Shown: one piece after another, positions 7,480-61,218 of the stretch | How the letters are laid out: each line of letters begins with the position of its first letter | How positions within the stretch are numbered: the first letter of the stretch is position 1 | Source of the DNA: an uncultured Rhodospirillales bacterium | GTDB lineage: Bacteria > Pseudomonadota > Alphaproteobacteria > Rhodospirillales > UBA2165 | Assembly: GCA_913055735.1 (NCBI GenBank) | Contig: CAJXKD010000001.1 | Location: 1,520,281-1,584,280, forward strand | Direction: 5' to 3' | Length of the DNA stretch: 64,000 nt | Translations under genes and position numbers: made by a program | The notes under the pieces: generated by a model | What the model was told of the DNA's origin: nothing | Databases searched by the model: none | The model's input: the letters and a program-made list of their open reading frames with translations, nothing else

Positions 7480-8724
7480 CTAGAACATCCTCACGTTGGG
7501 GAGCGGGACAATAAATCGGCCGCCGTCTTCGCTAAAGGCACGATGGTTGGCCATGATGGGCTCGGCAAAATTCCACGCAAGTACAATCAGATAGTCCGGC
7601 CGCCGATCATAGATCGCCTCACTAGGCAGAACCGGCACATGAAGACCGGGCGAATATAGTCCCTGTTTCCACGGGCTGTCGTCGGCGATGAAATCGATCA
7701 CGGTTCCATCCAGGCCGAAATGATACATCAAGGTGGTTGCCTTGGCGGGGGCGCCGTATCCGGCGATCGTCGCGCCGCCCGATTTAAGCTTGGCGAGCAA
7801 GCCCGTAAGCTCGGCTTTTACGAAATCAATACGAGTTGAAAATCGCGAAAGCGTTTCTGCCTTGTCGAGACCCATCGCGCGTTCTTCGTCGAGGCGCTCG
7901 GCGACGGTTCCGTCGCCGGTATCGTTCGCGCCGGCCAACCGAACGTGACAACGAAGACTGCCGCCATGTGTGTCGATCCGTTCGGCCCGGGTCAGCTTCA
8001 GTCCGTGGGCGGCAAAGAAGCGCTCAAGCGGGAGCACCGAATGATAGGAAAGATGTTCATGATAAATCGTGTCGAAGAGGGTTTTTTCGTAGACATCGGC
8101 GAGATAGGAAACCTCGAACACGAACACCCCGTCATCCGCCAACAAAGTCCGGATGCCGTCGGCGATCTCTCCCAGATCGTCGGCATGGGCGAAGACATTG
8201 TTCGCCGTGATCACATGCGCCGGCCCCCGTTCCCGCCGCAGTTTGCCGGCCAACGCGCTATCGAAGAAGACGGGCAAGGTCTCGATGCCGCCCTCGGTAG
8301 CCTGCCGGGCGATTTTGCGGGCGGGATCAACTCCTAAAACCGACATCCCCGCCTTCTTGAAAAAACCGAGAAGGGTGCCGTCGTTCGAGCCGATGTCGAG
8401 AACCAGGCTTCCCGACGGTGGCGCGTATGTTCGTAGGATGTCTCCTGCGTAGCTCTCAAAATGGCCGACGAACGCGGGGGATGTGCCCGACACATAGACG
8501 TAATTTTCGAACAACAACTTCGGATCGACGACGTTTGACAGCTGCACATGGCAGCATGCGTTGCAGAACATAACGTCGAGAGGATAGACCTCTTGCGGTT
8601 GATCCAGTGCGTCGGCGGTGACGAATGCATTGGCGGGCGGCGTCGGTGTTAGAGACAGCACCGGGACAAGATCGCGGCCGCCACAGAGGCGGCAATCTTT
8701 GCGGATATGATGAAGGGGCGCCAC
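7480..8724 (-). CDS. NDP-hexose C-methyltransferase (TylCIII-like, class I SAM MTase with Zn-ribbon)
   Basis: 414 aa with GTG start. N-terminal Cys pairs CRLCGG...CNACCHVQL, SAM motif LVLDIGSNDGTL, and a C-terminal domain as in sugar C-methyltransferases. Confidence 0.75.
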   Translation of the reverse strand: MAPLHHIRKDCRLCGGRDLVPVLSLTPTPPANAFVTADALDQPQEVYPLDVMFCNACCHVQLSNVVDPKLLFENYVYVSGTSPAFVGHFESYAGDILRTYAPPSGSLVLDIGSNDGTLLGFFKKAGMSVLGVDPARKIARQATEGGIETLPVFFDSALAGKLRRERGPAHVITANNVFAHADDLGEIADGIRTLLADDGVFVFEVSYLADVYEKTLFDTIYHEHLSYHSVLPLERFFAAHGLKLTRAERIDTHGGSLRCHVRLAGANDTGDGTVAERLDEERAMGLDKAETLSRFSTRIDFVKAELTGLLAKLKSGGATIAGYGAPAKATTLMYHFGLDGTVIDFIADDSPWKQGLYSPGLHVPVLPSEAIYDRRPDYLIVLAWNFAEPIMANHRAFSEDGGRFIVPLPNVRMF

Positions 8725-35074: not shown

Positions 35075-35120
35075 CGATTAGAGCGTTCTAGAAGGCCGCG
35101 TCAGTGACCGATCGATCGAA

Positions 35121-37833: not shown

Positions 37834-37858
37834 GTCAGCTCTGAAAACCGCTTTCAGT

Positions 37859-39142: not shown

Positions 39143-39184
39143 TTTTGTTCAGACCATTTGCTGTGGTTGGTTTATCCGATTTCG

Positions 39185-41267: not shown

Positions 41268-41281
41268 TTCCTCGGTTCTTC

Positions 41282-45088: not shown

Positions 45089-46252
45089 CTACGCTGGGAC
45101 GTATTTCGCCCGGACGTCATCATTTGGAAAGTATTCGTCCAGCTTCTGATTTTGTTGAGCGTACCAATCCGTCAAGAATCTCTTTTGTGTGGGTGAGTAC
45201 AATTCCCAGTCAAGATAGAGATAGGATTCAAGAAGCTCGATCTTGCGACGCGAGGAAAGCAAAAGCCTGCCAAGATTTCGCCACAGGTACAAATCCATAA
45301 GGAATTTGGAAACGCTTTTCAGCCGACCCGACTTCTGGGATTTTTCGTAGAGAGAAAACAGGCTGTTTTCGATTTGAAGGCTAAGGGGGACGGACGTCGC
45401 CATTTCAAAGGAGTGTTTCCAGAAAAATAGACGGCGGAACCAAATCAATATCTCGATCGTGAATGCGGAGTAGGCCTTGTTGTAAACTGTCGTCGAGGTA
45501 ATTTGCGGAACGGAATCGTCTCCGCGCCCCAATACGGCCAAAATTCTTTTCAGAAAAGCGTCTCTGTCGCTGATGAATTCCTCGAAAAAAAGTGTATGTA
45601 CGTTATCTCTGCCAAATTTGGCGTTGCAGAACTCGATCAAATTCCCGTAGTCGAGCGCCAGCGCATTGACCGTCCGTTTTTTGAAGAAATTATCTTTGCC
45701 GCGGGCAAAAAATCTACCGCTTCGAAAATTCAGATACTCATCGAACGAAATCTTCTGCCCAGCCTTTATTTCTTGTTTGTACATCGACTTGAGCATGCCG
45801 AGTTGGTTCCTGATGACGATGATGATTTTGGCATTCGGTGCGATCGCTGAAACGAGCTCCATGTTCCGCTTGAAGGTTTCCGGCGGGTCGGCGCTTAGGG
45901 CTTTCTCCGCGGGCTGCGTAAACGACTGCTCGCCGGGGACATCCGAGAATATCGGGAATCCGAGTCCTTCGTCGCTCACAATGACTGTGTCGGCGTTCTC
46001 ATTCTCTAAGATCGCTCGCGCATCATTGGGGCGAAATGAATCGCCGATCCGGTAGCATTCGTGATCGAACCGGCCGGTCCGATAGAATTCATCAAGGACG
46101 GTTGTATTAAACGCCACGGAAATTCCATCTAGGGCTGGAAAGAACAGGCCCTGCAAGTAAGAACTTGCCGTCTTGTTCAGTCCAACGTGGAAAATGTAGT
46201 TTTTGCCGTTGCCACCTGAATCTGGTGCCATCGGCAAACCGGTCCCACCCAT
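45089..46252 (-). CDS. Sulfotransferase-like P-loop protein
   Basis: 387 aa. FHVGLNKTASSYLQ resembles a 5'-PSB loop and IVIRNQLGMLKSMY resembles a 3'-PB motif. The start abuts the upstream stop. Confidence 0.45.
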   Translation of the reverse strand: MGGTGLPMAPDSGGNGKNYIFHVGLNKTASSYLQGLFFPALDGISVAFNTTVLDEFYRTGRFDHECYRIGDSFRPNDARAILENENADTVIVSDEGLGFPIFSDVPGEQSFTQPAEKALSADPPETFKRNMELVSAIAPNAKIIIVIRNQLGMLKSMYKQEIKAGQKISFDEYLNFRSGRFFARGKDNFFKKRTVNALALDYGNLIEFCNAKFGRDNVHTLFFEEFISDRDAFLKRILAVLGRGDDSVPQITSTTVYNKAYSAFTIEILIWFRRLFFWKHSFEMATSVPLSLQIENSLFSLYEKSQKSGRLKSVSKFLMDLYLWRNLGRLLLSSRRKIELLESYLYLDWELYSPTQKRFLTDWYAQQNQKLDEYFPNDDVRAKYVPA

Positions 46253-47728
46253 TCAGTTCTGTCCCTTACCGATCTCATTCAATTTGTTGAAGATGGTGTC
46301 GGCGAACAGCGCGTAGCCGCGTGGGTTAAAATGGCCCATTACGATACCAAGTTCCTTGGGTCCCCCGAGCGGAAACAGAGCGCTTTTGTCGTCGACCGCT
46401 TTTAGAACCGGCTCGAAATTCAAGACATTTATGCCCTTACCGCGGAGTGCGGACAATAGAAGTGGCTTGTAATCGTGAATGGTACAAATCCGGCCGTCGG
46501 TTGATCGTTTTGCAGACCCGAAAAGTATCCCGCGATCAGGGTTCGACACGAAAAGGAATTTCCCCCCGTCCTTGGTTGCAATCCCGCTCATTCGCGTGAT
46601 GACGCTCTCTAGAATAGAAAAATTCCGGCTCAATGCTTCCGTGTCTGGCCGTCGCCAGTTTCCATTGCAGGGGAGAGATTTCTGAATTGCGGGCTTTAGC
46701 AGCATGCGGATGTGATATAGCGTGGTTATCCGATGCGTCGGATTCTGATTCTTGTAACGGACATTGTCCGCCTCTCGCGCGCTGAGCACCTCGCTGGCTA
46801 GGTCACGGATGTCGTCATCGGGCATGTTCTTCACCTCGCCCATTGCGCCCGCATCAGTACCCGCCGACGCGCTGAATTCCTCCAGTTTACGTTTCTCGTA
46901 ACGTGATACGACCTCCCACAGCGCCAAAATGTCTTTGTCGATTTCGTGCTGGTCTCTTTTTCTCAGACCTTGCTCGAAGTCCGCGTCAGTGACGTATCGC
47001 ATCAACAGGTCGGATTGCCGTTCCCAGGAAATATCTCTCAGATCGTTGGCGTCGAAATGTAGATATACGACAAAACGGGCTTTTACATTTTTCCCATATT
47101 CGATGTAGGCCGCCAAACTCGATAGCGGTCCGTTTCCGCCGCGTCCAAGATTCAGAACGCTGAGGTTTTTGGACCGGAGGACGCCGGCAATATTCTGGTG
47201 GGGTTCGACGGAATAGCCCTGTGCGTAACTGTCGCCGACGAGCACCACGTCGATGGTTTCTCCCTTTTCTATTTTCTCCCAAACGTCGTCGGGATTGTTG
47301 AAACCGTGCCGATCCGAAAAGAAGTCGGCGAAATATCCGTTTTCGTTGCTCAGAACGACACGAATTCCCGATGCATCACCGGGCGGGAAATAAGGCTCCC
47401 GCCATTGATCAAATACCTTCTTGTTGGCGTAGTACTGCGGGCCGATCGACTTGGTGATTCGTTCTCCCCGTTTTCTTTCATCCTCTATGTATTGCGTGTG
47501 GTGCCGGCGATCATATTTGATACCGCGTTTGGCGGCAGCTTTCTCGAGCCGCTCGACTTCCGTCGACTCTCTTTTGCCGTACTTTACGGCTAGGAGGTCC
47601 CGATAGATTTCTTCTTTCTTCTCTGCTCTGAACGCAATCTCTAAAGCGACGTTAATCAAGAAGATCGTCGTCAATGAGGAGATCAATACCAGAAGAGAGG
47701 AGAAGAAAATCTTCTTTAAATTTTTCAT
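46253..47728 (-). CDS. Membrane-anchored SGNH/GDSL-like hydrolase/acyltransferase-like protein
   Basis: 491 aa. N-terminal TM helix IFFSSLLVLISSLTTIFLINVAL, block I VVLVGDSYAQGYS, and a C-terminal GHFNPRGY. Confidence 0.5.
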   Translation of the reverse strand: MKNLKKIFFSSLLVLISSLTTIFLINVALEIAFRAEKKEEIYRDLLAVKYGKRESTEVERLEKAAAKRGIKYDRRHHTQYIEDERKRGERITKSIGPQYYANKKVFDQWREPYFPPGDASGIRVVLSNENGYFADFFSDRHGFNNPDDVWEKIEKGETIDVVLVGDSYAQGYSVEPHQNIAGVLRSKNLSVLNLGRGGNGPLSSLAAYIEYGKNVKARFVVYLHFDANDLRDISWERQSDLLMRYVTDADFEQGLRKRDQHEIDKDILALWEVVSRYEKRKLEEFSASAGTDAGAMGEVKNMPDDDIRDLASEVLSAREADNVRYKNQNPTHRITTLYHIRMLLKPAIQKSLPCNGNWRRPDTEALSRNFSILESVITRMSGIATKDGGKFLFVSNPDRGILFGSAKRSTDGRICTIHDYKPLLLSALRGKGINVLNFEPVLKAVDDKSALFPLGGPKELGIVMGHFNPRGYALFADTIFNKLNEIGKGQN

Positions 47729-47762
47729 ACTGGGATGCGTTATCGCCCGTGACCGCGTCTGA

Positions 47763-49397
47763 TTATAGGCCGGATGCGCTTCGGTCTTTTTCGATCAGGA
47801 CGTCGCCAACGATAAGCGCGTCGAGGCCGCACCCAAAAAATGTCATCAACGCATCCCGAGGCGTTTCGACGATCGGCTGGCCATTTAGATTGAAGCTTGT
47901 ATTCAGAATCACGGGTGTGCCGGTCAGTTTTCCGTAGGATTCGATAAGTCGATGATAGGTCTCGTTTTGCGCAGGTTTAACGGTTTGCAAGCGTGATGTG
48001 CCGTCGAAGTGGACGACGGCGCGAATTTGATCCGCAGTCGCCGGTAGAGCGTCGACGGCAATAGACATGCTCGGGAATTCAAGGCCTTTTGTGTCGAAGA
48101 ATCGGTCTGCGGATTCAAACAATGCCGATGGTGCGAAAGGACGAAATTCCTCCCGGTACTTGATGCGTGCATTGACTTTGTCTCGCATGTTGGCGTCGCC
48201 CGCCGTTGCGAGGATGGACCGGTTGCCCAATGCGCGCGCTCCCGCTTCCGATCTTCCTTGGTGCCAGCCAATGATTTTACCGTCCGCTAAAAGCTCGGCG
48301 CCGGTTTGGGCTGGATCACCAAGCGTTTTGTAAGCGACGCCATTGGATTGGAGTTCGTCAAGAATATCGTCATTCGAGTACGCCGAGCCAAGATACGGTG
48401 TCGTCATGGGGGCGGGCGTGTCGCCGCTCCGTGCGGCACCGAGATACGCGCACCCCGCGCCCAGTCCGCGGTCCGCTGCGACCGGAGAGACGTAAACGTT
48501 TTCAAACATTCCAGAAAAAAGTATCAGACGGTTTGCGACGCAATTCAGCGCCGCTCCACCAGCAAAACAAAAATTTGGTATTTCAGGAAATCGCTCGTGC
48601 AGGCTTTTTACCAGCTCAAACAGGCATGATTCAAAATGCGCCTGTGTGCTTCTCGCAAGATTACGATGAAAATCGGTAATTTCTTCGCCAGGCTTTCTGC
48701 TCGGTTGTCCGAAGAATTCCGCCAGCTTTTCCGAATAGAGGGGTTCAAACGGTGACCGGACGACCGGTTCGTTGCGCATGAACGAGTTTTCGAACGTCCA
48801 TCCCTGTCCGTTCAATTTGAGAACTGGATTGAGATCGAAAGTATTCTCGCCGTAGGTCGCCAGGCCCATAAGTTTGTATTCATCAAGATCGGCGAAGCCC
48901 AGGTAACGCGTCATCAGCGTATAAAACATTCCGAGCGAGTTCCGGGCCGGGATGTCATCAAGAATTTGAAAGCCGTTCTCCCTTGAGGCGATTGCCGTCA
49001 TGCCGGAGGAGCCGTCTCCGGTTGCATCAAGCGACAGGCAAATTGCTTTGTCGAACGGCGAACCATAGAAAGCCGTCGCGAGATGGGCCTCCTGATGATG
49101 AACCCGTTCTATTTTCGGCCGGGTTCCGAATTGGTGGCGAAGATAATCAGCCCATCGTTCATCCGCCTCGTCGTATGTGACGCCGGTGGTGACAAAAACA
49201 TCGATGTCTTCGAAGCGTATGCCAGCTTCCGCGAGGCATGCTTTGATCGAATAATTGGGTAGGTAGCCATACGATGATTTGATGCGCAGGTACCGTTCTT
49301 CCTCGCATATCGCAATTAACTCGCCGTCTATGGCCAGCGCCGCGGAGGGGTCGTGCTGATTGATGGTCACGCCGCCGTGTAGACCCAAAACGATCAT
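47763..49397 (-). CDS. Carbamoyltransferase (NodU/CmcH family)
   Basis: 544 aa. The N-terminal MIVLGLHGGVTINQHDPSAALAIDGELIAICEEERYLRIK is the family hallmark. Confidence 0.85.
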   Translation of the reverse strand: MIVLGLHGGVTINQHDPSAALAIDGELIAICEEERYLRIKSSYGYLPNYSIKACLAEAGIRFEDIDVFVTTGVTYDEADERWADYLRHQFGTRPKIERVHHQEAHLATAFYGSPFDKAICLSLDATGDGSSGMTAIASRENGFQILDDIPARNSLGMFYTLMTRYLGFADLDEYKLMGLATYGENTFDLNPVLKLNGQGWTFENSFMRNEPVVRSPFEPLYSEKLAEFFGQPSRKPGEEITDFHRNLARSTQAHFESCLFELVKSLHERFPEIPNFCFAGGAALNCVANRLILFSGMFENVYVSPVAADRGLGAGCAYLGAARSGDTPAPMTTPYLGSAYSNDDILDELQSNGVAYKTLGDPAQTGAELLADGKIIGWHQGRSEAGARALGNRSILATAGDANMRDKVNARIKYREEFRPFAPSALFESADRFFDTKGLEFPSMSIAVDALPATADQIRAVVHFDGTSRLQTVKPAQNETYHRLIESYGKLTGTPVILNTSFNLNGQPIVETPRDALMTFFGCGLDALIVGDVLIEKDRSASGL

Positions 49398-49463: not shown

Positions 49464-51353
49464 CTATCTCGGAAAAAGATCGAACATGGCAGGCGCATCT
49501 TTCATTGGAAATTCGCCAGTCTTCAAATCTTCGATCCGGAGGCCGAAAGCCGCCAGCCGTTCGCGCCAATACTCGGATTCGGCCAGCCGGCGCTCAAAAC
49601 GGTCAATCAGCGTCTGATCGACCTCGCCGTTCTCCAAGCATTGCAGAAATCCTTGAAAATAGAGCGCGAAACCGTTTTCCGGCGAAATGACCTCTGAAAG
49701 AGTCTGTAGATGTGCTCGCAACTGCGCCAGTTTGACGGGGCGGCGTTCAAAGAATATCCGGTGAAAATTGAGGGTATAATTCATATAGAACCACATGTCG
49801 GTAATTTGGCCGGGGGTCAGAACATCATCCGGTGCGACGCCAGCGAAGGCCGAGGCGAACAGCGCTTCCGCAGGCCTTTGCCCTTTTTCGATCTCCGCCT
49901 GTTTGCCGTAGGAACCACCCATGAAGCGGACCTCGCCGGCTTTCTCGTCCTTGATAATCCCCTGCTCCACCATCGCATCGTGGATCGGCGTATTGGGCAG
50001 CGGCTGAAGAGGCGATATCCGATACCAGTCGCAGTCCATTTCCCGGGCGACATCGATGGTGTCCTGCACCATACGGAACGTCTCTCGGGGAAACCCGACC
50101 ATCAAGAGAACGGATGTGTGGATTTCCTCGTATTTCCGCAGGACACGAGCAGCTTCGAGGAAAACATCGACCGTCCCCGGTTTGCGGATTTCACGAAGGA
50201 TACCCGCATTTCCCGATTCCATTCCGATATTGACGGCAATGCATCCTGATTTAGCCATCGCGTCCACAACCTCGTCGGTGCAGGAGCTGGCGATCAGGCC
50301 GTTGGTGGCATCCCACGTAATGCCAAGATTGCGCCGCGCGATCTCGTCGAACATGGTAATCGCCCGGCGATGATCCTTCAGGAGGTCGTCGTCAAGCCAC
50401 ATGATATGATCGACGCCGTACGTGTTGACCAACTCTTCGATTTCATCAACGACCTGTATCGGATCGCGGCCTCGTACGCCCTTGCCGTTGAAGTTCCTAA
50501 CAGAACAAAATGTGCATTGCGCACGACATCCGCGATTCGAGAGAACCGTGGCAAACACGGCATCCTTGGGTTTAAAGCAATAGAAAGCGCCGATGGTGCC
50601 GTATCTGGAATATTCCGGGATTTCCATGAGATCGTAGGCCGGCGTAACGTCCACGTCGTCGGCTTCGGGGCGGCAATCTTTCATAAAATAATGACGTTCG
50701 GTCGAATTAGGTGCGCCGACACTCGGCAATACCGCAATCATCTGTCCCAGGCTTTCGGGCTCGGACGTGCCGTTAATGCAGCGGACGAAATTCGCGATTG
50801 CTCCTTCTGCCTCGCGCAAAAAGGCAAAACTCACGGCCGGAACATCGTCGAGCACGTGTTCTACATCGTTCGATACATGAACGCCTCCGATCGATACGAC
50901 ATAGTTCTTTTCCGCGATGTAATTGCAGACCCGTTTAAGAGATTCATGGGTCATGGTGAACATGCAGGTGACGCCTACGAAATCGGGCTCAAAGTCCTCC
51001 AGGACGTCGTCCAGCTTGGCCTGCCATGTGGCATCATGATCGAAATCCTGCTCGCGGGCGGCAGTATTCGCCGTGCGCAGGATTTCTTGGTTCAAGTTGC
51101 ACAGCTTTACGTCGACCCCGATCCTGCGGAGCTTTTCCGCCACGATGCCGAGGCCGTAAGGCGGGTAGTTGGTGTACCGGCCGCGTTTGGCCGTTTCGAA
51201 GCGGAACAACCCGCTGTCGGCGTCTGGCGGGGTAACTAGGAGTACCTTTTTGATTTGTCCGTTCGGGAACAAATCTGCCATTTGCTTTACCAGGGCATGC
51301 AAGTCGGACTTGTCCCCGATGGGCTGGTGGTTAAATTTCCTGATCTCATTCAT
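49464..51353 (-). CDS. B12-binding (class B) radical SAM enzyme
   Basis: 629 aa. An N-terminal Rossmann-like KKVLLVTPP...CMFT region is followed by SNRGCRAQCTFCSV (CxxxCxxC). Confidence 0.8.
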   Translation of the reverse strand: MNEIRKFNHQPIGDKSDLHALVKQMADLFPNGQIKKVLLVTPPDADSGLFRFETAKRGRYTNYPPYGLGIVAEKLRRIGVDVKLCNLNQEILRTANTAAREQDFDHDATWQAKLDDVLEDFEPDFVGVTCMFTMTHESLKRVCNYIAEKNYVVSIGGVHVSNDVEHVLDDVPAVSFAFLREAEGAIANFVRCINGTSEPESLGQMIAVLPSVGAPNSTERHYFMKDCRPEADDVDVTPAYDLMEIPEYSRYGTIGAFYCFKPKDAVFATVLSNRGCRAQCTFCSVRNFNGKGVRGRDPIQVVDEIEELVNTYGVDHIMWLDDDLLKDHRRAITMFDEIARRNLGITWDATNGLIASSCTDEVVDAMAKSGCIAVNIGMESGNAGILREIRKPGTVDVFLEAARVLRKYEEIHTSVLLMVGFPRETFRMVQDTIDVAREMDCDWYRISPLQPLPNTPIHDAMVEQGIIKDEKAGEVRFMGGSYGKQAEIEKGQRPAEALFASAFAGVAPDDVLTPGQITDMWFYMNYTLNFHRIFFERRPVKLAQLRAHLQTLSEVISPENGFALYFQGFLQCLENGEVDQTLIDRFERRLAESEYWRERLAAFGLRIEDLKTGEFPMKDAPAMFDLFPR

Positions 51354-51356
51354 GGG

Positions 51357-52256
51357 TCAATTGACTCGCTGAAGTGCATCAAGAAGCCGGACTTTGGCAC
51401 GGACCGTTTTTTCCGGCGGTGTAAAGGTCAATCCAAGACTCCCGACAGCAAGCCCATTATCCAGCCAGGCATTCGTTGGCCGCGGTTCCGAATAGGTCAG
51501 CTCGCTGAACCGGATAGGTTCAAAGCTCATCTTATCGCCAAACGTGCTTTCCGCGATGATCCACTCACATAGTTGGGTTCTGGAGACGGCCGGGCAAGCC
51601 GCAAGATGGACGATCTTGGGGCGGTCCGGCAATTTTGCCAATTCTACCACGCCCCGCGCGGTGTCGTTAATGTCCGAAATATTGATCAAATTGTCATACG
51701 CCATTCGTGCGTTTCCGGAAAGTAGGTGGTGATAAGCATCCTTAACCGCGCAGTGGGAGTCAGGGTCGCCCGGCACGTTCCATCCTGTCCGCATAACGCA
51801 ATGATTACCTTCTAGAGAAAGCAGGAAGTCCTCCACCTCCACTTTCATGCGACCATAAAGGTTGAGGGGATTCGGAGAAACCTCTTCGGTATAGCCGCCG
51901 TCTCGTCCGTCGAAAACCTGGTCCGTGGACATGAAGAAAACGGATGCCCCCCGGTCTTGGCAGGTCTTTACGAGACGAACCGTTGCATCAACGTTCAGTT
52001 CTCTAGCCTTCGCCTGATTCTCGAAAATCCATCCAGGGGAACCGTAGGCCGCAAGGATCAAAACCGTGTCTTGGTTGCCGATATCCGGAATGCTGCATGT
52101 CAAATCGCCGCTTATCATCTCGAATTTTATCGCATCCGGGGTGGTGCGCCGATGGGCGGTTGCAACAACGGGTATTGCTGATTGGCGGGCGGTATTTACG
52201 ACCGACGTGCCGATAACACCCGAACCGCCAACGACGATGAGACGTCCTTGGTCCAT
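51357..52256 (-). CDS. RmlD-substrate-binding-type sugar-nucleotide reductase/epimerase (SDR)
   Basis: MDQGRLIVVGGSGVIGTSV from the ATG at 52256 (the track ORF uses a TTG at 52265 overlapping the upstream stop), plus YGRMK. Confidence 0.55.
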   Translation of the reverse strand: MDQGRLIVVGGSGVIGTSVVNTARQSAIPVVATAHRRTTPDAIKFEMISGDLTCSIPDIGNQDTVLILAAYGSPGWIFENQAKARELNVDATVRLVKTCQDRGASVFFMSTDQVFDGRDGGYTEEVSPNPLNLYGRMKVEVEDFLLSLEGNHCVMRTGWNVPGDPDSHCAVKDAYHHLLSGNARMAYDNLINISDINDTARGVVELAKLPDRPKIVHLAACPAVSRTQLCEWIIAESTFGDKMSFEPIRFSELTYSEPRPTNAWLDNGLAVGSLGLTFTPPEKTVRAKVRLLDALQRVN

Positions 52257-52261
52257 TCCGA

Positions 52262-52795
52262 TCAAAGGCGTTCCATCGAACGCAAGACGTTCGATAGGTA
52301 TTCCTGCTGGGATTTCTTATCGTCTTCTTCGGACGGTGCCCATTCCGCATAGATGGTTTCTTGACGGCGGAACGGGCCATTTGTCACTTCGTGGAAGATG
52401 ACGAACTCCGTTTCTGGAATAATCATGTGATATAGGGGCTTGGATAGCCGATAGAAAAGGTTCTTTCCCGTTCCGGCGGCGCCCAGATCGAGCGTTTGAA
52501 GTATTTGTCCGTTGTCGTCGAACAGGATCAAAAGCAGCTCGCCTTCAATCATATGAAAGGATTCGCTCTTGTTCATATGTTTGTGCGGCTGACAGTACAT
52601 TCCCTTTTTATGGACGATGACCATCTCATGAAGCGGATCGTCCGTTGTCTTATGGGCGTTTATTCTCACCCGGTTGCGCGCGTTCGTGCTCGCGAGTTTT
52701 TTTAGAGCCTCTATCTGGGCCGGCGAAATATAGGTGACCGGGTTTTCGGAGACGAAAACCTCTTCATTCAGACGTTTAAAGGCGTCGAGACTCAT
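52262..52795 (-). CDS. WbuC-like cupin-fold protein
   Basis: 177 aa. RINAHKTTDDPLHEMVIVHKKGMYCQPHKH is a His-rich cupin core, as in WbuC-family proteins of O-antigen loci. Confidence 0.55.
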   Translation of the reverse strand: MSLDAFKRLNEEVFVSENPVTYISPAQIEALKKLASTNARNRVRINAHKTTDDPLHEMVIVHKKGMYCQPHKHMNKSESFHMIEGELLLILFDDNGQILQTLDLGAAGTGKNLFYRLSKPLYHMIIPETEFVIFHEVTNGPFRRQETIYAEWAPSEEDDKKSQQEYLSNVLRSMERL

Positions 52796-52802
52796 AATCC
52801 GA

Positions 52803-54059
52803 TTACCGTACCAAATCGGGATGGCGCTTTAGGAACGATAGCGCGATTTGCGTTTCGCCATTCCAGGCGCGCCCTTCCAGGGCAATATTCCAGAAAGTGT
52901 CGATCATCTTACGTTCCTCGCCGTCGAGAACGCGCCGATCTTCCAAAATCTCTTCCATCTCGACGGCCAGATCGAGGATTTCCTCCGGCGTATTCTCAAT
53001 AAGCTCGATACCCGCGTCGGAGAACTGTTTCGTGAACACGAACTGCCCAGCCCCGGACCCAACTATCTCCGAGAATGTCATGAACCGTTTTTGCTCCTTG
53101 GACCAGTACCGTTTGGGAATCCACAAATCCGTGGCCCGTGCCTTGAAGACATTTAATGCTTGTAATGGCGCTACATTACAGTTCGCGACTGGCGTGTGAA
53201 ACAGCCGGGGGAGATCAAGTACGCCGGACGCAGTTGCCACGCAAAATTTTGAACGAAAAGCGAGATAAATATCGCGTTCTTCGGTTCGGTGACGACTAGG
53301 ATAATCGACAATTGCCGGATCGGCCGTCTCCAGACTTTCGGAAACATGGGCTCCCGCTCGAACGACACCCATCCCTTTGGACGCAAATCGCTGCGCCATG
53401 GGAAGCATGTTTTGGATGCTGGAATCCCGATAGTCGTGATAGGACCAATCTTTACTTGGGCTAATATGATCCAAATGCGCCGCATCGCGGTTGGCAAACA
53501 GAATGACCTGCTTTTCCGGCTCGATTCCTAGGCTTGTGAGCCATTTGTCGCCGCGTTCGATGGTTTCCTTGTCGAGAACAATTGGTGGCGGGGCCTCGAG
53601 AGTAACACCCTCCCGGTCCAAGGAACTTACGGCCAAAGAATGGCGCTCCCAGTTGGGCAGTTGTCGGCTGGCCGCGTCGACATACTCGCTCAGTTGAAAG
53701 AACCGCATTTTCTTGCGGACGAGGTGGTACAGACAATTATTGACCGGCTGCGTGGTTCGGAAAAAAACGTCGATGTATCCTGCGTGTTTTCCGGACGCCC
53801 GTTCACAAAGGTAGGTATGGCATGCTCCTGCGAAATGGCCGATACGGCCCGTATCAATCCGGCAAATCCTGATGGAGATCCACGGCCACGTGATCCGCAT
53901 CAGAACGGCGGCCGGAAATCCAATCAATCCGACGAGAATCGACGAAAGGAGCCGCCGGAGCGCCAGCCGCGGATTGGTCTGCGCGGTTCGAAGCTTGCGC
54001 ACGAACACGGCAGGTAAGTTGCGAAGAGCCACGGGTTCCTTGTTGACGGCTGCAGTCAT
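52803..54059 (-). CDS. Putative glycosyltransferase resembling the 'TIGR04372 family' type
   Basis: 418 aa from the ATG at 54059; the longer track ORF overlaps the transketolase gene. The blocks TGRIGHFAG, FANRDAAHL, HDYRDSSI and VDYPS...DIYL match my recollection of that family. This needs HMM confirmation. Confidence 0.4.
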   Translation of the reverse strand: MTAAVNKEPVALRNLPAVFVRKLRTAQTNPRLALRRLLSSILVGLIGFPAAVLMRITWPWISIRICRIDTGRIGHFAGACHTYLCERASGKHAGYIDVFFRTTQPVNNCLYHLVRKKMRFFQLSEYVDAASRQLPNWERHSLAVSSLDREGVTLEAPPPIVLDKETIERGDKWLTSLGIEPEKQVILFANRDAAHLDHISPSKDWSYHDYRDSSIQNMLPMAQRFASKGMGVVRAGAHVSESLETADPAIVDYPSRHRTEERDIYLAFRSKFCVATASGVLDLPRLFHTPVANCNVAPLQALNVFKARATDLWIPKRYWSKEQKRFMTFSEIVGSGAGQFVFTKQFSDAGIELIENTPEEILDLAVEMEEILEDRRVLDGEERKMIDTFWNIALEGRAWNGETQIALSFLKRHPDLVR

Positions 54060-54097
54060 TCCAAAGGTTGATCGGGTGTACGCGCCGATGACCACAT

Positions 54098-55015
54098 CTA
54101 TGAATTGATGGACGTCAGAATGGCCGAGGGTGACAAGCCGTGTTCGGCGAGTAGTTCTTGATGGCTGCCGTAACAATGGATGAACTCATCCTTCAAGGAA
54201 TAGCAATCAAGGCGCGCAGACGTTCTGGTATCGAACGCGATCTCTTTTACACGTGAGCCAAGGCCACCGTGCGGAACGTGTTCTTCAATCACGACGACAT
54301 GCTTGTGCTCGGCCAGAACGCTCGCGATTCCGTCTCGATCCAAGGGCTTGATTGTATGACAGGAATAGAGCGAAACGGATTGCCCCTGTTTTTCTAACGT
54401 CTCGGAGATCTCGGCTGCCATCGCGACTGTAATCCCGTAGGACAAAATCGCGATATCCGATCCCTTTTTGAGGCAACGAATCTTTCCAATGGCAAATGGG
54501 TCGAGAGCGGCACTTGTCAAATCCGGTTCACCCGCTTTTCCCAGGCGCATATAGACAGGTCCGTGGCTTTGTGTCGCACACCATTCCGTCGCCGTCCACA
54601 TCTCGTTGGGATCGCAGGGTGCAAGAACGGTCATATTGGGGATAGCGCTAGCGACCGCCACATCTTCCATCGTGTGATGAGTTCCTCCCAGCGTTGAATA
54701 AATGACGCCTGCGCCCATACCGATCACGGTGACGGGTAGGTTTTGGTAGCAAAGGTCGTCTCTCACCATTTCGAACGGCCGGAATAGGGAGAAGGTCGCA
54801 ATCGTATAACAAAACGGCCGCATGCCATTTAGTGCCATGCCCGCGGCGATTCCGATCATGGCTTGTTCGGCGACGCCGCAGTTCACGAACCTCTCGGGAA
54901 AATCCTCGCGGAAATTGACCATGGAACCGGCCGGCGAAATATCCGCCACGATGGCGCAAATACGGTCGTCGGTCTTGGCAATTTCGTAAATTGCATCGGC
55001 AAACTTGTTCCTCAC
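54098..55015 (-). CDS. Transketolase, C-terminal (pyrimidine-binding + C-terminal domain) subunit
   Basis: 305 aa with a GTG start overlapping the upstream stop. Motif FVNCGVAEQAMIGIAAGMALNGMRPF. Confidence 0.85.
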   Translation of the reverse strand: MRNKFADAIYEIAKTDDRICAIVADISPAGSMVNFREDFPERFVNCGVAEQAMIGIAAGMALNGMRPFCYTIATFSLFRPFEMVRDDLCYQNLPVTVIGMGAGVIYSTLGGTHHTMEDVAVASAIPNMTVLAPCDPNEMWTATEWCATQSHGPVYMRLGKAGEPDLTSAALDPFAIGKIRCLKKGSDIAILSYGITVAMAAEISETLEKQGQSVSLYSCHTIKPLDRDGIASVLAEHKHVVVIEEHVPHGGLGSRVKEIAFDTRTSARLDCYSLKDEFIHCYGSHQELLAEHGLSPSAILTSINS

Positions 55016-55836
55016 GATGAAACCTCCGCGAGTTCGTCAATAGCTTGCCGGTATTCCTCCGGTGTAGGCGATCGATAATGCCATACCGGAACGTTTTCCA
55101 TGTAGGAGACCCCTCGTCCTTTGATCGTATTGCCGATAAGCATGAAGGGTTTGCCGCCTTTCCGTTCCGTAATCGCCTTGAACACCGCCTCGGCATCGTG
55201 ACCATTCACTTCAACCGCTTCCCACCCAAACGCTTCAACCTTTTCGCGGATCGGGTAAAAGGCGGGATGCGTCTCGGAAGTGCGGCCAAAGGACTGGAAA
55301 CCATTGTGGTCAAGGAGCGCAATCAGATTGTCGGTTTTCAGGTTGGCCGCCATCATCATGGCTTCCCAGGTCGACCCCTCCTGGAATTCGCCGTCGCTTA
55401 GTACTGCGAAAACCTTTCCTGTCTTGCGATGAATATACTTTTCCGCATAGGCCATTCCCGTTGCCAATGCCATCCCATGACCCAGCGATCCCGTCGACGC
55501 TTCTATGCCGGGAACGCCATAATCGGGATGGCAACCGAGCCGCCCCTCCGGCTTGCAGTAAAGTGCGATATCTTCCTCGGTGAGTATCCCGAGATCTTCG
55601 AGGATCACATATTGAACGAGGCAGCCGTGGCCCTTGGACATGATAAATCGATCTTTGTCTTCCGCTGCGCCATCTTGCCGCATAAGCGCGTGATAGACAC
55701 AATCGACCATTTCCATCGCCGAGAAGGCGGCCGCAGCATGCAACGCTGTAACCTTCTGGGATATATCAAGAATGCGCTTGCGATACATTTTGCACCGCTT
55801 CTGCGCAGCGTTTACGTCAAAACTATTCTGAAGCAA
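55012..55836 (-). CDS. Transketolase, N-terminal (ThDP pyrophosphate-binding) subunit
   Basis: 274 aa (TTG at 55836; an alternative ATG lies at 55788). Motifs SKGHGCLVQY, GSLGHGMALATGMA and VLSDGEFQEGSTWEA...LLDHNG. Confidence 0.85.
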   Translation of the reverse strand: MLQNSFDVNAAQKRCKMYRKRILDISQKVTALHAAAAFSAMEMVDCVYHALMRQDGAAEDKDRFIMSKGHGCLVQYVILEDLGILTEEDIALYCKPEGRLGCHPDYGVPGIEASTGSLGHGMALATGMAYAEKYIHRKTGKVFAVLSDGEFQEGSTWEAMMMAANLKTDNLIALLDHNGFQSFGRTSETHPAFYPIREKVEAFGWEAVEVNGHDAEAVFKAITERKGGKPFMLIGNTIKGRGVSYMENVPVWHYRSPTPEEYRQAIDELAEVSS

Positions 55837-55859: not shown

Positions 55860-56510
55860 TCAGTCAATTATCGTCCAGTACCAGTCACCGGTATAACCGG
55901 CTTCGTCAAATAGTTTTATCCATCCGTCCGGGTAATCGTGGAACATTGCCGTAAGCACCCAACTCTCGAAAATTTCCTTTTGCTCCGGCGTTCGGTAGCT
56001 GTCTACTTGAACGAATCCGCGCCCAGGACTTAGGCGCTCGAATTCGCGTAGCGCCTGCGCGCACCGGTCGCGAGGCAAGTTATGGATGGTATTGATTGAT
56101 AGAACTGCGTCGAATGTTCCATCGGGGAAGGGGAGTTCATCGGCGCTGCCCAGGTGCAGACGTCCCACCGTTTCCCGCTCGCAGTTCATCAAGGCGTATT
56201 TTGAAATATCGACGCCGTACGCATCGATTCCGATTGCCAATAAGTCTTTGACGAGGAAACCTTTGCCGCACCCGACATCCAATACCTTGGCACCTGGCTC
56301 GAGCCCAAAATGTTCGACGATATCGGTAGCTACAGGCTGCCAGCGGCCGTCATAATAGTACCCGCCATATCCGTATTCGCGTGGTCCGTCGAAATAGACC
56401 TCGCCATATTCCCTTGAAATACGCACATGTTCGTCGGATTTAGCCGTTTCGCGTGCTTTGACATTGCGTTTGCCCTTGGGCAATGAGCGCAGGAGATTAA
56501 CCTCAACCAT
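55860..56510 (-). CDS. Class I SAM-dependent methyltransferase
   Basis: 216 aa. Motif I AKVLDVGCGKGFL. Confidence 0.75.
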   Translation of the reverse strand: MVEVNLLRSLPKGKRNVKARETAKSDEHVRISREYGEVYFDGPREYGYGGYYYDGRWQPVATDIVEHFGLEPGAKVLDVGCGKGFLVKDLLAIGIDAYGVDISKYALMNCERETVGRLHLGSADELPFPDGTFDAVLSINTIHNLPRDRCAQALREFERLSPGRGFVQVDSYRTPEQKEIFESWVLTAMFHDYPDGWIKLFDEAGYTGDWYWTIID

Positions 56511-59664: not shown

Positions 59665-61218
59665 TTAGGCTCCGTAACCCGCCGTTTTTTCGATCTGATT
59701 GATACGACTCAGCACGTCTGCGGGTTTAACCGGAATATTGCCGTCATATTCGCATTCGCACGCGGCTGCGAACGACCCCAATATTGCCGCGATAACCGCG
59801 TTCTTGGTCGCCAACATGGATAGCGTGGCGTAGGCTAAAAGTGCGTCGCCTGCCCCAACCGCATCGACGACGGTTCGCGCGAAACTATCTATCGAAAAAT
59901 ACGTGACACCGTCTTCTTCGCTCGACGGAAAGGTCGCGAATACGCCGCGGTCCCCCAGTTTTAGGATGAGCAATCGGCATCCTGTCTCTCCCATTAGTGA
60001 ACCGGCAAGGCTGCCGACCGTCGAGTCCTGATCTGCGAGCGCAAACCGCGCTTCACGTTCGTTCGGTGTAATCAGATCGAAATCCTTGAACTCAGTGATA
60101 TTGCCCCATCTGCTCGCGACCTGACTATCGGCGACCTTATAGACGTCTGCCGGAATTGCGTCGGTTAAGACGGGTACGGTAAGCTGATTGAAAATTCCAT
60201 GGCGGAAATCGCTGAATACCACCGCGTCCGATTTTGTATTTTTCAAAGTCTCGCTCAGTTCCTCCAAAATCGTATCCGAGATGGACCGATTGTCGAGCGT
60301 ATCTACTTTGAGCAGCCGATATCCGCTAGCGATTATCGCGTTCTTGTTTGTTGTCGGCCGAGTTTGATCAATGATCGCTTTGCAGTCTATCCCCGCTTCC
60401 GTCAGGCCTTTTACGACGAAGTCTGCGTAGCGGTCCTTACCGAGTACAGTCGAGAACACGACCTCCGCACCTGCGGCGCGCATATGCTGGCAGACAATTC
60501 CGGCGCCGCCAATATAGTCGTCCTGCCCTAGGTATCGAACGCTAAACGTGGGTGTTTTGGTCTGGCCACCGATTAGAGACGTACGAGTGTAGCTGTCTAC
60601 GATGGTGTCGCCGAGAACATGGACCTTGAATCCCTTCATCTGATCGACGGCCTTTCTGAGGTCGTCAAAAGAAAGGCCATTTGAATGCATTAGGGACAAG
60701 AGCTTCTCGATTTGAAGAGCCGGCGGTGCAAGGTCGATCAGCTTTGAAGAGGAGTATACGACGTCCCCTGGCGTGAAAATCATCTCGCCGCCGTATCCCT
60801 CGACTAAATCCGCCTCTTCTTGCGTGGCAGGTGGAAGTCCGCCCCCCATATATTCGAAGCCTTTTGCGAAATAGTCCGGCTGCAAATAGTTTATGTTTTC
60901 TAGGGGTTTGGCATTGTGATCGATGATCACGTAGTCGACCATTTCGAACGCAGCAATGTTCAAGGCACGCAATCGTTCCGGCACATGTGGCCGATAGGTC
61001 CCTTTCTTAATATGCTTGTCGGCCGTGATGCTGGCAATCAGGATATCGGCTTTCGTCTTGGCGTAGGCTAAGTGGCGCACATGGCCGGGGTGCACGACGT
61101 CGAATACGCCATGACACATGATGACCTTTTTTTCACGCGGAAAGCCGCCAATGACTTTTTTCAGATCCTCACGATCGCGGAGTTTGAAGCTGTATTTTTC
61201 GAAGAATTCCGTGGTCAC
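59665..61218 (-). CDS. Bifunctional sugar-phosphate nucleotidyltransferase + PfkB sugar kinase (HldE/RfaE-like with inverted domain order)
   Basis: 517 aa with GTG start. The N-terminal CHGVFDVVHPGHVRHL...ITADKHIKKG..RP resembles RfaE domain II. The C-terminal VHVLGDTIVDSY...GGAGIV...DAVGAGDALLA resembles the PfkB/RfaE domain I kinase. First gene of the long operon. Confidence 0.7.
   Translation of the reverse strand: MTTEFFEKYSFKLRDREDLKKVIGGFPREKKVIMCHGVFDVVHPGHVRHLAYAKTKADILIASITADKHIKKGTYRPHVPERLRALNIAAFEMVDYVIIDHNAKPLENINYLQPDYFAKGFEYMGGGLPPATQEEADLVEGYGGEMIFTPGDVVYSSSKLIDLAPPALQIEKLLSLMHSNGLSFDDLRKAVDQMKGFKVHVLGDTIVDSYTRTSLIGGQTKTPTFSVRYLGQDDYIGGAGIVCQHMRAAGAEVVFSTVLGKDRYADFVVKGLTEAGIDCKAIIDQTRPTTNKNAIIASGYRLLKVDTLDNRSISDTILEELSETLKNTKSDAVVFSDFRHGIFNQLTVPVLTDAIPADVYKVADSQVASRWGNITEFKDFDLITPNEREARFALADQDSTVGSLAGSLMGETGCRLLILKLGDRGVFATFPSSEEDGVTYFSIDSFARTVVDAVGAGDALLAYATLSMLATKNAVIAAILGSFAAACECEYDGNIPVKPADVLSRINQIEKTAGYGA

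What the first reader, a model, noticed from the sequence alone, without database searches (positions are those of the whole stretch)
49464..52795. Cobalamin-dependent radical SAM enzyme embedded with RmlD-like reductase and WbuC-like cupin in a surface-glycan operon
Seen: a 629-aa protein with an N-terminal B12-binding-type Rossmann region and RGCRAQCTFCSV (CxxxCxxC). It is followed immediately by an RmlD-substrate-binding-type SDR and a WbuC-like cupin.

Established: class B radical SAM enzymes typically methylate unactivated carbon or phosphorus centres in antibiotic pathways such as fosfomycin, gentamicin and thiostrepton.

Inference: in this context it most plausibly C-methylates, or otherwise radically modifies, a nucleotide sugar or the acyl group. 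That would be an antibiotic-style tailoring step recruited to cell-surface glycan synthesis. Together with the TylCIII-like C-methyltransferase at 7480-8724, the locus would encode two mechanistically different C-methylation systems.
Basis: partly seen in the sequence, partly recalled or inferred. Interest (0 to 1): 0.6.

Follow-up and report, generated by a model that had tools for sequence, protein, structure and literature searches.

The report
Uncharacterised B12-radical-SAM enzyme in glycan operon
A real gene for a vitamin-B12-type radical SAM enzyme sits, tightly linked to a sugar reductase and a metal-binding cupin, inside a 60-kb cell-surface polysaccharide operon. It belongs to a large, widespread family that nobody has characterised and that probably adds a methyl group to, or otherwise radically remodels, a sugar.

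Summary
On the minus strand, 52795-52262 encodes a WbuC-family cupin, 52265-51357 an RmlD-type SDR, and 51353-49464 a 629-aa protein. That protein has a B12-binding domain (PF02310, residues 61-189), a Radical_SAM domain (PF04055, residues 273-434) and CRAQCTFC.

The rSAM passes no curated equivalog model. Its best hit, the Sden_1168 P-methylase model, scores 118 bits against a cut-off of 575. It belongs to a large unnamed clade: 447 clusters (50% identity) at E<=1e-30, spread across many phyla. The closest orthologues (>=55% identity) keep the SDR directly upstream (8 of 12 loci) and a WbuC-domain gene directly downstream (8 of 14). They often also keep a class-I methyltransferase and a split transketolase.

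The AlphaFold model (pLDDT 89) has the class-B rSAM architecture. It matches cobalamin-binding enzymes (TsrM, OxsB, MgmA, TokK) and the cobalamin-free AprD4 about equally.

C-methylation of a sugar is the best guess (about 0.45) but is not shown. Radical rearrangement, or an AprD4/AprD3-like dehydration-reduction, is not excluded. I rate it a new variant of a known kind, of moderate interest.

The parts
49464..51353 (-). 629-aa B12-binding-domain radical SAM protein (class-B architecture), member of an unnamed clade
   Evidence: ORF. Pfam PF02310 + PF04055. No NCBIfam equivalog passed. AF2 pLDDT 89.1. Foldseek top hits are TsrM, OxsB, AprD4, MgmA, TokK and CysS.
50787..51173 (-). N-terminal Rossmann-type B12-binding domain (residues 61-189), with family motifs PPYGL, CMFTMTH, GGVH and E181
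   Evidence: PF02310, 49.9 bits against a cut-off of 32.1. Translation. GG is conserved in 100%/98% and E181 in 97% of 72 diverse representatives. On its own, the domain hits only B12-rSAM families, weakly.
50052..50537 (-). Radical SAM core (residues 273-434)
   Evidence: PF04055, 74 bits. Aligns to MgmA/QCMT 9ccb (8.6e-14) and AprD4 6fd2 (3.9e-12).
50505..50528 (-). CxxxCxxC [4Fe-4S] motif CRAQCTFC (C276, C280, C283)
   Evidence: Translation. The three Cys are 100% conserved in 72 representatives.
49479..49916 (-). Family-specific C-terminal helical domain (about residues 480-625)
   Evidence: DSSP on the model shows helices 514-619. No NCBIfam hit for the C-terminal 153 residues scanned alone, residues 477-629. 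Full-length relatives align out to about residue 605.
51357..52265 (-). RmlD-type extended SDR (302 aa), probable NAD(P)H-dependent sugar ketoreductase. Its stop lies 3 nt before the rSAM start.
   Evidence: PF04321, 99 bits. TIGR01214 rmlD scores 90.5, below the 224 cut-off. GxSGxIG, S(T/S)(D/E)xVFDG and YGRxK are conserved in orthologues. Orthologue sits directly upstream of the rSAM in 8 of 12 close loci.
52262..52795 (-). WbuC-family (DUF6016) cupin metalloprotein (177 aa). Overlaps the SDR start by 4 nt.
   Evidence: TIGR04366, 130.9 bits against a cut-off of 42. PF19480 in the precomputed annotation. The PHxH...E..H motif is conserved. A WbuC-domain gene is directly adjacent to the rSAM in 9 other loci, three of them as WbuC-SDR fusions.
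55860..56510 (-). Class-I SAM methyltransferase (Methyltransf_11, 216 aa), a recurrent partner of this rSAM clade
   Evidence: Pfam. Within +-8 genes of the rSAM in 9 of 14 close loci. Fused to related B12-rSAM and GT2 domains in P0249.
54098..55836 (-). Split transketolase-like ThDP enzyme (N subunit 55012-55836, C subunit 54098-55015)
   Evidence: Pfam Transketolase_N and Transket_pyr + Transketolase_C. NCBIfam transketolase/DXS models score below cut-off. A two-subunit ThDP enzyme lies within +-8 genes in 27 of 70 family loci.
52803..54176 (-). TIGR04372-family glycosyltransferase (the true start is probably later; called as 418 aa elsewhere)
   Evidence: NCBIfam, 156.7 bits against a cut-off of 45. 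The gene call in the near-identical contigs is 418 aa.
47763..49397 (-). NodU/CmcH-type carbamoyltransferase, immediately downstream of the rSAM (66-nt gap)
   Evidence: Pfam Carbam_trans_N/C. The gene order is kept in near-identical contigs.
7480..8724 (-). TylCIII-type NDP-hexose C-methyltransferase cited in the finding
   Evidence: PF08421 + PF08484. A homologue lies within +-8 genes of the rSAM family in 11 of 70 loci.

Best explanation
The 629-aa protein is a cobalamin-dependent (class B) radical SAM enzyme. It works as part of a conserved tailoring module: WbuC cupin + RmlD-type reductase + rSAM, usually with a class-I methyltransferase. The module acts on a nucleotide-activated or lipid-linked sugar destined for a surface polysaccharide.

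Proposed mechanism (inferred): the cupin and the SDR isomerise or epimerise, then reduce, a keto-sugar intermediate, as RmlC and RmlD do. The rSAM cleaves SAM reductively, and the 5'-deoxyadenosyl radical abstracts an H atom from an unactivated sugar carbon. Methylcobalamin then transfers a methyl radical to that carbon and is re-methylated by a second SAM. The product is a C-methyl (branched or chain-extended) sugar that is then carbamoylated, sulfated or transferred by neighbouring enzymes.

Shown: the domain architecture, the conserved gene linkage, the glycan context and the retention of B12-domain motifs. Inferred: cobalamin use, methyl transfer, and the identity and carbon of the substrate.
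For: - B12-binding and Radical_SAM domains both score above Pfam thresholds, and the CxxxCxxC motif is intact.
- The best full-length model match is Sden_1168. PMC9204698 says this enzyme is proposed to catalyse a C- or P-methylation; that it is an in-vitro cobalamin-dependent methylase is my recollection. The alignment covers residues 30-472, including the B12 domain.
- The N-domain alone matches only B12-rSAM families (Sden_1168, BchE, PhpK, KedN5, HpnR), not AprD4.
- The canonical GG motif and E181 at the C-terminal edge of the Rossmann sheet are 97-100% conserved across 72 representatives at 27-56% identity.
- The fold equals the TsrM/OxsB/MgmA/TokK/CysS architecture.
- Conserved linkage: the SDR is directly upstream in 8 of 12 close orthologous loci and a WbuC-domain gene is directly downstream in 8 of 14. 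There is also translational-coupling-type spacing in the window.
- Sugar-nucleotide genes surround 44 of 70 family loci.
- A relative is fused to GT2 and Methyltransf_11 domains.
- Precedent for B12-rSAM C-methylation of sugar carbons: MoeK5, GenK, GenD1 (PMC9204698).
Against: - No curated methylase family is met (118 bits against a 575 cut-off).
- The next-best models are non-methylases: BchE 97, ladderane enzyme 93, HpnJ 91 bits.
- Foldseek ranks cobalamin-free AprD4 (1.8e-15) among the top hits. Reviews warn that B12-like domains in this network do not always bind cobalamin (PMC12931638).
- No sequence signature distinguishes methylases from other class-B chemistry.
- The locus already holds a TylCIII-type C-methyltransferase and several class-I methyltransferases.
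- No cobalamin gene or riboswitch is in the window.
- No glycan structure is known for any organism carrying the module.
Confidence: 0.45

Rival explanations
1. It is a cobalamin-dependent but non-methylating radical enzyme, like HpnJ, OxsB or BchE. It would rearrange the sugar skeleton, for example by ring contraction to a cyclitol or furanose-type ring, or by C-C bond formation or cyclisation with the two-carbon unit supplied by the neighbouring ThDP enzyme. The SDR would then reduce the resulting carbonyl.
For: - HpnJ (91 bits), BchE (97) and the ladderane enzyme (93) score almost as well as the methylase models.
- HpnJ is proposed to contract a glucosamine ring, and it co-localises with Fom3 and MoeK5 in sequence networks (PMC9204698).
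- OxsB is the second-best structural match.
- Two-subunit ThDP enzymes lie near the family in 27 of 70 loci, so unusual carbon-skeleton chemistry is plausible.
- A reductase is always coupled, which suits a rearrangement that leaves a carbonyl.
Against: Most characterised class-B enzymes are methylases. All similarities are far below family cut-offs. No product or intermediate is known. The nearest full-length model is a methylase.
Confidence: 0.2
2. It is a cobalamin-independent radical SAM dehydratase paired with its reductase, analogous to AprD4/AprD3. The rSAM would abstract an H atom next to a hydroxyl and eliminate the vicinal OH to give a ketone. The translationally coupled RmlD-type SDR would reduce it, giving an oxygen-independent deoxygenation of a sugar.
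For: - AprD4 is the second-best PDB sequence hit (3.9e-12) and a top structural hit (TM-score normalised to the target 0.67).
- The rSAM-SDR pair is the most conserved linkage and mirrors the AprD4-AprD3 logic. The AprD3 reductase pairing is from my own knowledge of the apramycin pathway.
- Reviews state that AprD4 carries a B12-like Rossmann domain without cobalamin.
Against: - The AprD4 model NF033070 scores only 53 bits and aligns only to the rSAM barrel (residues 268-471), whereas B12-dependent families also align to the N-domain.
- The GG motif and loop residues of the B12 domain are nearly invariant across the clade.
- The protein is 170 residues longer than AprD4 and has an extra C-terminal domain.
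- RmlD-type reductases already have a conventional role with a cupin epimerase.
Confidence: 0.2
3. It is a methylase, but its substrate is not the sugar ring. It could act on an N-acyl side chain of the pseudaminic-acid-type sugar made elsewhere in the operon, or on the assembled glycan or lipid carrier.
For: - The window encodes PseB (509 bits), DegT, NeuB, CMP-sugar synthetases, GNATs, a MaoC-SDR fusion and a class-III aminotransferase, which could build unusual acyl groups.
- The relative P0249 is fused to glycosyltransferases, which hints at action at or after glycosyl transfer.
- MoeK5 is thought to act on a lipid-linked sugar rather than an NDP-sugar (own knowledge).
Against: The conserved partners of the orthologues are sugar-nucleotide enzymes (SDR, WbuC), not acyl-building enzymes. 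Pse genes are not conserved near the family.
Confidence: 0.1

Closest known systems
Sden_1168 / PhpK family B12-radical-SAM (P-)methyltransferases (NF038361, TIGR04479)
   Same: These are the best-scoring curated models. The Sden_1168 alignment spans both the B12 and rSAM domains (residues 30-472). Same two-domain class-B architecture.
   Different: Scores are 118 and 111 bits against cut-offs of 575 and 600, so this protein is not a member. No phosphonate or phosphinate genes (PEP mutase) are in the window. This protein has a family-specific C-terminal helical domain and sugar-enzyme partners.
MoeK5, GenK, GenD1 (B12-rSAM C-methylases of sugar carbons in moenomycin and gentamicin)
   Same: They are class-B rSAMs that methylate unactivated sugar carbons, which is the chemistry proposed here. 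The moenomycin unit F is also carbamoylated and derives from a uronic acid (own knowledge). The window likewise has a carbamoyltransferase next to the rSAM and an NDP-sugar dehydrogenase upstream.
   Different: They belong to antibiotic pathways in actinomycetes, and their substrates are lipid-linked or pseudo-oligosaccharides. No SDR/WbuC coupling is known for them.
HpnJ (hopanoid cyclitol-ether ring contraction) and OxsB
   Same: B12-rSAMs that remodel a sugar or nucleoside ring without methyl transfer. HpnJ scores 91 bits and OxsB is the second structural hit.
   Different: The HpnJ cut-off is 578 bits, so this protein is not a member. There is no hopanoid or oxetanocin context.
AprD4/AprD3 (radical SAM diol dehydratase + reductase)
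   Same: An rSAM with a B12-like N-domain, coupled to a reductase and acting on an aminosugar. Strong structural match.
   Different: AprD4 lacks cobalamin and the C-terminal domain. Only the barrel aligns by sequence (53 bits against a 500 cut-off). AprD3, as I recall, is not an RmlD-type SDR.
RmlC/RmlD and FnlB/WbuC pairs in 6-deoxy-L-sugar pathways
   Same: A cupin plus an RmlD_sub_bind reductase, adjacent in an O-antigen-type cluster. The catalytic YxxxK and STDxVFDG-like motifs are kept.
   Different: The SDR scores 90.5 bits against a 224 cut-off for true RmlD. WbuC has no demonstrated activity. No known Rml or Fnl pathway includes a radical SAM enzyme.

Membership tests
Radical SAM superfamily | CxxxCxxC cluster motif within a PF04055 partial TIM barrel | tested here: met
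   CRAQCTFC at residues 276-283. PF04055, 74 bits against a 29.5 cut-off. The Cys residues are 100% conserved.
Class B (B12-binding domain) radical SAM enzymes | N-terminal Rossmann-type B12-binding domain (PF02310) preceding the rSAM core | tested here: met
   PF02310, 49.9 bits against a 32.1 cut-off, residues 61-189. The model shows a beta-alpha Rossmann domain. The fold matches TsrM, OxsB, MgmA, TokK and CysS.
Class B (B12-binding domain) radical SAM enzymes | Actual binding of cobalamin (base-off) next to the [4Fe-4S]/SAM site | tested here: inconclusive
   The GG motif and E181 are conserved, and the N-domain hits only B12-rSAM models. But cobalamin-free AprD4 matches the fold equally well. 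No coordinates or ligand modelling were available.
Class B radical SAM methyltransferases (Fom3/GenK/MoeK5/PhpK/TokK type) | Membership of a characterised methylase family, or demonstrated methyl transfer | tested here: not met
   All NCBIfam methylase models score far below their cut-offs: Sden_1168 118/575, PhpK 111/600, HpnR 39/650, TsrM 34/500. Activity is not testable here.
AprD4 family radical SAM diol dehydratase (NF033070) | Score at or above the curated cut-off of 500 bits | tested here: not met
   53.4 bits, and only residues 268-471 align.
dTDP-4-dehydrorhamnose reductase RmlD (TIGR01214) | Equivalog score at or above 224 bits | tested here: not met
   90.5 bits. Only the Pfam RmlD_sub_bind domain and the catalytic motifs are shared.
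WbuC family cupin fold metalloprotein (TIGR04366) | Subfamily score at or above 42 bits, with conserved His/Glu metal ligands | tested here: met
   130.9 bits. The PHKH...E.FH motif is conserved in 9 homologues.
TylCIII-type NDP-hexose C-methyltransferase (gene at 7480-8724) | Zn-binding N-domain PF08421 + class-I MTase + PF08484 C-terminal domain | tested here: met
   PF08421 77 bits and PF08484 175 bits.

The most novel reading that the evidence does not exclude
This clade could be a widespread, previously unrecognised sugar-tailoring system. It is present from Rhodospirillales to SAR11, Verrucomicrobia, Planctomycetes and some archaeal MAGs. In this reading the B12-rSAM, together with the SDR, the WbuC cupin and a two-subunit ThDP enzyme, builds a new class of branched, chain-extended or ring-rearranged (carbocyclic) monosaccharide on aquatic bacterial surfaces. 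That would be chemistry beyond simple C-methylation.
Probability: 0.2. Interest if true: 0.75.

Novelty: new variant of a known kind. Interest (0 to 1): 0.5.

Why it matters
In the papers I could search, no B12-dependent radical SAM enzyme has been characterised in cell-surface polysaccharide biosynthesis. All sugar-modifying examples (GenK, GenD1, MoeK5, HpnJ) come from antibiotics or hopanoids.

A conserved rSAM-SDR-cupin module occurs in hundreds of sequence clusters, including abundant marine lineages. This implies an unknown sugar modification that could shape phage and grazer recognition and the chemistry of marine dissolved organic matter. It would also tie surface-glycan synthesis to vitamin B12 availability.

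The window offers a compact, testable gene set: three co-translated genes plus a methyltransferase.

Tried and rejected
- Exact look-up of the window protein and of the Paramagnetospirillum homologue found no contig. The source organism was therefore not identified, and its cobalamin synthesis or uptake could not be checked.
- A profile search of the PDB aligned only the rSAM barrel, so it could not separate cobalamin-binding from non-binding N-domains.
- An Rfam scan found no cobalamin riboswitch or any other RNA family.
- The promoter/terminator scan gave no more sites than shuffled sequence, so there is no evidence for an internal transcription unit.
- Six literature searches for B12-rSAM enzymes in surface-glycan, flagellin-glycosylation or SAR11 contexts found nothing relevant. 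WbuC papers mention it only as a gene next to mcr-9.
- I considered arguing that SAR11 lacks B12 use, which would suggest cobalamin independence. I dropped this because PMC9296465 describes SAR11 as B12-auxotrophic.
- The SDR's best PDB match is MAT2B, the regulatory subunit of SAM synthetase. I judge this to be ordinary RmlD-fold similarity, not a functional link to SAM.
- A phosphonate or phosphinate role, suggested by the PhpK and Sden_1168 hits, is rejected. None of the window ORFs I scanned with Pfam or NCBIfam matched a phosphonate-pathway enzyme such as PEP mutase.
- Phylogenetic placement against Fom3, GenK and GenD1 could not be done because their sequences were not retrievable with the tools.
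Full report
**Observation.** The ORF listing shows three consecutive minus-strand ORFs at the stated coordinates:
- 52795-52262 (177 aa)
- 52265-51357 (302 aa, TTG start; near-identical contigs call a 299-aa version)
- 51353-49464 (629 aa)

Pfam gives the 629-aa protein a B12-binding domain (PF02310, residues 61-189, 49.9 bits against a 32.1 cut-off) and a Radical_SAM domain (PF04055, residues 273-434, 74 bits). The cluster motif CRAQCTFC is at window 50505-50528. The 302-aa protein has RmlD_sub_bind (99 bits). The 177-aa protein passes the NCBIfam WbuC cupin model (130.9 bits against 42) and is labelled DUF6016 in precomputed annotation.

One point needs changing: transcription runs cupin, then SDR, then rSAM. 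Cupin and SDR overlap by 4 nt, and a 3-nt gap separates SDR and rSAM. This spacing is typical of co-translated partners. Neither promoter-like nor terminator-like sites exceed the number found in shuffled sequence.

**Context.** The window is essentially one roughly 60-kb minus-strand glycan operon. It contains:
- a WbpM-like dehydratase (115-2019), a WecA-family initiating transferase (4361-5371) and GT1/GT2/GT4 glycosyltransferases;
- the confirmed TylCIII-type C-methyltransferase (7480-8724) and a SPASM-type rSAM (17770-18900);
- a pseudaminic-acid set: PseB equivalog at 509 bits, DegT, NeuB and two CMP-sugar synthetases;
- a fused ABC exporter, a sulfotransferase, an SGNH protein and a NodU-type carbamoyltransferase directly after the rSAM;
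- upstream of the trio, a TIGR04372 glycosyltransferase, a split transketolase, a Methyltransf_11 enzyme, an SDR, an NDP-sugar dehydrogenase, a Gfo/Idh/MocA oxidoreductase and an HldE-like kinase/nucleotidyltransferase.

'Surface-glycan operon' is justified.

**What the rSAM is.** No curated family claims it. The NCBIfam scores against their cut-offs are:

| Model | Bits | Cut-off |
|---|---|---|
| Sden_1168 P-methyltransferase | 118 | 575 |
| PhpK | 111 | 600 |
| BchE | 97 | 481 |
| ladderane rSAM | 93 | 360 |
| HpnJ | 91 | 578 |
| AprD4 | 53 | 500 |
| TsrM | 34 | 500 |

By sequence, the nearest solved structures are MgmA/QCMT (9ccb, 8.6e-14) and AprD4 (6fd2, 3.9e-12), and only the barrel aligns.

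An AlphaFold2 model built on 68 homologues is confident (pLDDT 89.1, pTM 0.89). Foldseek places it in the class-B architecture: TsrM 7e-17, OxsB 3e-16, AprD4 2e-15, MgmA 5e-15, TokK 8e-14, CysS 2.5e-12.

The family is large. There are more than 1,650 word-index hits, with orthologues at 55-70% identity. There are 447 clusters (50% identity) at E<=1e-30 and about 14,000 at 1e-10. Seventy-nine genome loci were recovered, from Rhodospirillales, Pelagibacteraceae, Verrucomicrobia, Deltaproteobacteria, Planctomycetes, Elusimicrobia, Omnitrophota and some archaeal MAGs. The sources name it only 'B12-binding domain-containing radical SAM protein' or 'YgiQ family'.

**Cobalamin question.** Reviews stress two points. 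All solved class-B enzymes hold cobalamin base-off. Some network members (AprD4, ArsL) have a Rossmann domain that binds none (PMC12931638).

In favour of genuine binding here:
- The most conserved N-domain residues lie just after the beta-strands of the Rossmann sheet. These are PPD after E36-41, CMFTMTH after E125-129, GGVH..ND after E152-156 and E181 after E176-178.
- Across 72 full-length representatives at 27-56% identity, the canonical GG pair is conserved in 100%/98% and E181 in 97%.
- The isolated N-domain hits, weakly, only B12-rSAM models (Sden_1168, MJ_1487, BchE, PhpK, KedN5, HpnR). The AprD4 model aligns only to the barrel.

This favours a real cobalamin site but does not prove it. 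I could not inspect coordinates or dock the cofactor. The window holds no cobalamin gene or riboswitch.

**Conserved partners.** I called ORFs in all loci, clustered them and built HMMs for the recurrent families.

Among the 14 loci whose rSAM is >=55% identical:
- the orthologous RmlD-type SDR lies directly upstream on the same strand in 8 of the 12 loci that have an upstream gene;
- a WbuC-domain gene lies directly downstream in 8, three of them as WbuC-SDR fusions;
- the Methyltransf_11 gene is within eight genes in 9.

Two distant members (L078 and L080, about 33% identity) keep the same SDR-rSAM(-WbuC) arrangement. The SDR orthologues retain GxSGxIG, S(T/S)(D/E)xVFDG and YGRxK. The cupins retain PHxH...E..H. 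Both are therefore probably active enzymes.

Across all 70 other loci:
- sugar-nucleotide genes lie within eight genes in 44;
- a two-subunit ThDP enzyme (split transketolase or E1 alpha/beta) in 27;
- further B12-rSAM paralogues in 21;
- HemN-like rSAM or PhyH dioxygenase genes adjacent in 17;
- TylCIII-type C-methyltransferases in 11.

A distant relative (P0249, 1,879 aa) fuses two B12-rSAM units with two Methyltransf_11-type and two GT2 domains. The clade is thus habitually a glycan-tailoring enzyme, not an isolated loan from antibiotic pathways.

**Mechanism.** The most economical reading is a class-B C-methylase acting on a sugar intermediate handled by the cupin (isomerase or epimerase) and the RmlD-type ketoreductase. 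Reviews list precedents for B12-rSAM methylation of sugar carbons: MoeK5, GenK and GenD1 (PMC9204698). From my own knowledge, the moenomycin sugar methylated by MoeK5 is also a carbamoylated uronic-acid derivative. That echoes the carbamoyltransferase and the NDP-sugar dehydrogenase in this operon. This is a lead, not a test.

Two rivals remain. The first is a cobalamin-dependent rearrangement like HpnJ, OxsB or BchE. Their models score nearly as well, and the frequent ThDP enzymes hint at unusual carbon skeletons. The second is an AprD4/AprD3-like dehydratase-reductase pair, suggested by the tight rSAM-SDR coupling and the structural match. It is weakened by the conserved B12-domain motifs and by AprD4 similarity that is confined to the barrel. 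A fourth possibility is methylation of a non-ring substrate, such as an acyl group or the assembled glycan.

**Comparison and novelty.** The protein is a member of the radical SAM superfamily and has the class-B domain organisation. It is not a member of any characterised methylase, cyclase or dehydratase family. The SDR is RmlD-like but not RmlD (90.5 bits against 224). The cupin is a true WbuC-family member, but that family has no known activity.

Six full-text searches found no paper describing a B12-rSAM in cell-surface glycan biosynthesis. I therefore rate it a new variant of a known kind: familiar enzyme class, uncharacterised clade, new conserved partnership and new biological setting.

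Interest is moderate (0.5). A specialist would not be astonished to see such a gene in a polysaccharide locus. However, the breadth of the clade and the compact conserved module make an unknown sugar modification directly testable.

'Two mechanistically different C-methylation systems in one locus' is possible, and the TylCIII gene is real. But methyl transfer by the rSAM is inferred rather than shown, with about 0.45 confidence for sugar C-methylation and about 0.55 for methylation of any substrate.

Noticed in passing
window 54098-55836 (-); loci L003, L001, L037, L042, L045 and others: A split transketolase-like ThDP enzyme sits inside the glycan operon. Across the rSAM family, a two-subunit ThDP enzyme (transketolase-type or E1 alpha/beta-type) lies within eight genes in 27 of 70 loci. 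This suggests two-carbon branch or chain-extension chemistry on sugars.
   Followed up: partly
window 17770-18900 (-): A second radical SAM enzyme, of the SPASM type and with no equivalog, is in the same operon. Homologues of it lie near the B12-rSAM family in 12 loci.
   Followed up: partly
window 32183-42277 (-): A pseudaminic-acid-type nonulosonic acid gene set: PseB equivalog (509 bits), DegT aminotransferase, NeuB, GNAT, WbqC-like protein and a CMP-sugar synthetase. A second CMP-sugar synthetase is at 19710-20477.
   Followed up: partly
protein P0249 (1,879 aa): A natural fusion: B12-rSAM, Methyltransf_11, GT2, methyltransferase, GT2, B12-rSAM. Other relatives carry 4-5 rSAM units (P0232, P0257) or TPR repeats (P0225).
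   Followed up: partly
window 51357-52265 (-): The SDR's best PDB sequence matches are human MAT2B (5e-15), the regulatory subunit of SAM synthetase. These rank slightly ahead of bacterial RmlD (1e-12). This is probably just shared RmlD fold, but it is curious next to a SAM-consuming enzyme.
   Followed up: no
window 59665-61218 (-): An HldE-like bifunctional protein with the reverse domain order: cytidylyltransferase-like N-terminus and PfkB kinase C-terminus. It scores below the HldE cut-off. Homologues, together with SIS isomerases, flank the rSAM in L077, L016 and L014, which hints at a heptose or higher-sugar substrate.
   Followed up: partly
loci L004, L008, L009 (genes next to the rSAM, cluster 43); L007 47-661 (cluster 31): In some orthologous loci the SDR/cupin is replaced by proteins of about 310 aa with no Pfam hit. 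They carry an HxD...H pattern (LHSDIWA.EP) reminiscent of Fe(II)/2OG dioxygenases. PhyH-family dioxygenases and HemN-like rSAMs flank more distant paralogues.
   Followed up: no
window 15925-17754 (-), 25798-27690 (-), 36793-37833 (-), 61606-63507 (+): Four sizeable ORFs (609, 630, 346 and 633 aa) have no Pfam family. ORF 25798-27690 overlaps the DUF4910/DUF2172 gene (27512-28858) by 179 nt, so its start is probably mis-set.
   Followed up: no
window 45089-49397 (-): Carbamoyltransferase, an SGNH-like protein and a sulfotransferase follow the rSAM. This implies a carbamoylated and sulfated (and possibly O-acylated) glycan.
   Followed up: no
window 63496-63969 (-) and 8737-9195 (-): Two further cupins are in the operon: an FdtA/WxcM-type 3,4-ketoisomerase at the window edge, and a Cupin_2 protein just upstream (in transcription) of the TylCIII-type methyltransferase.
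   Followed up: no
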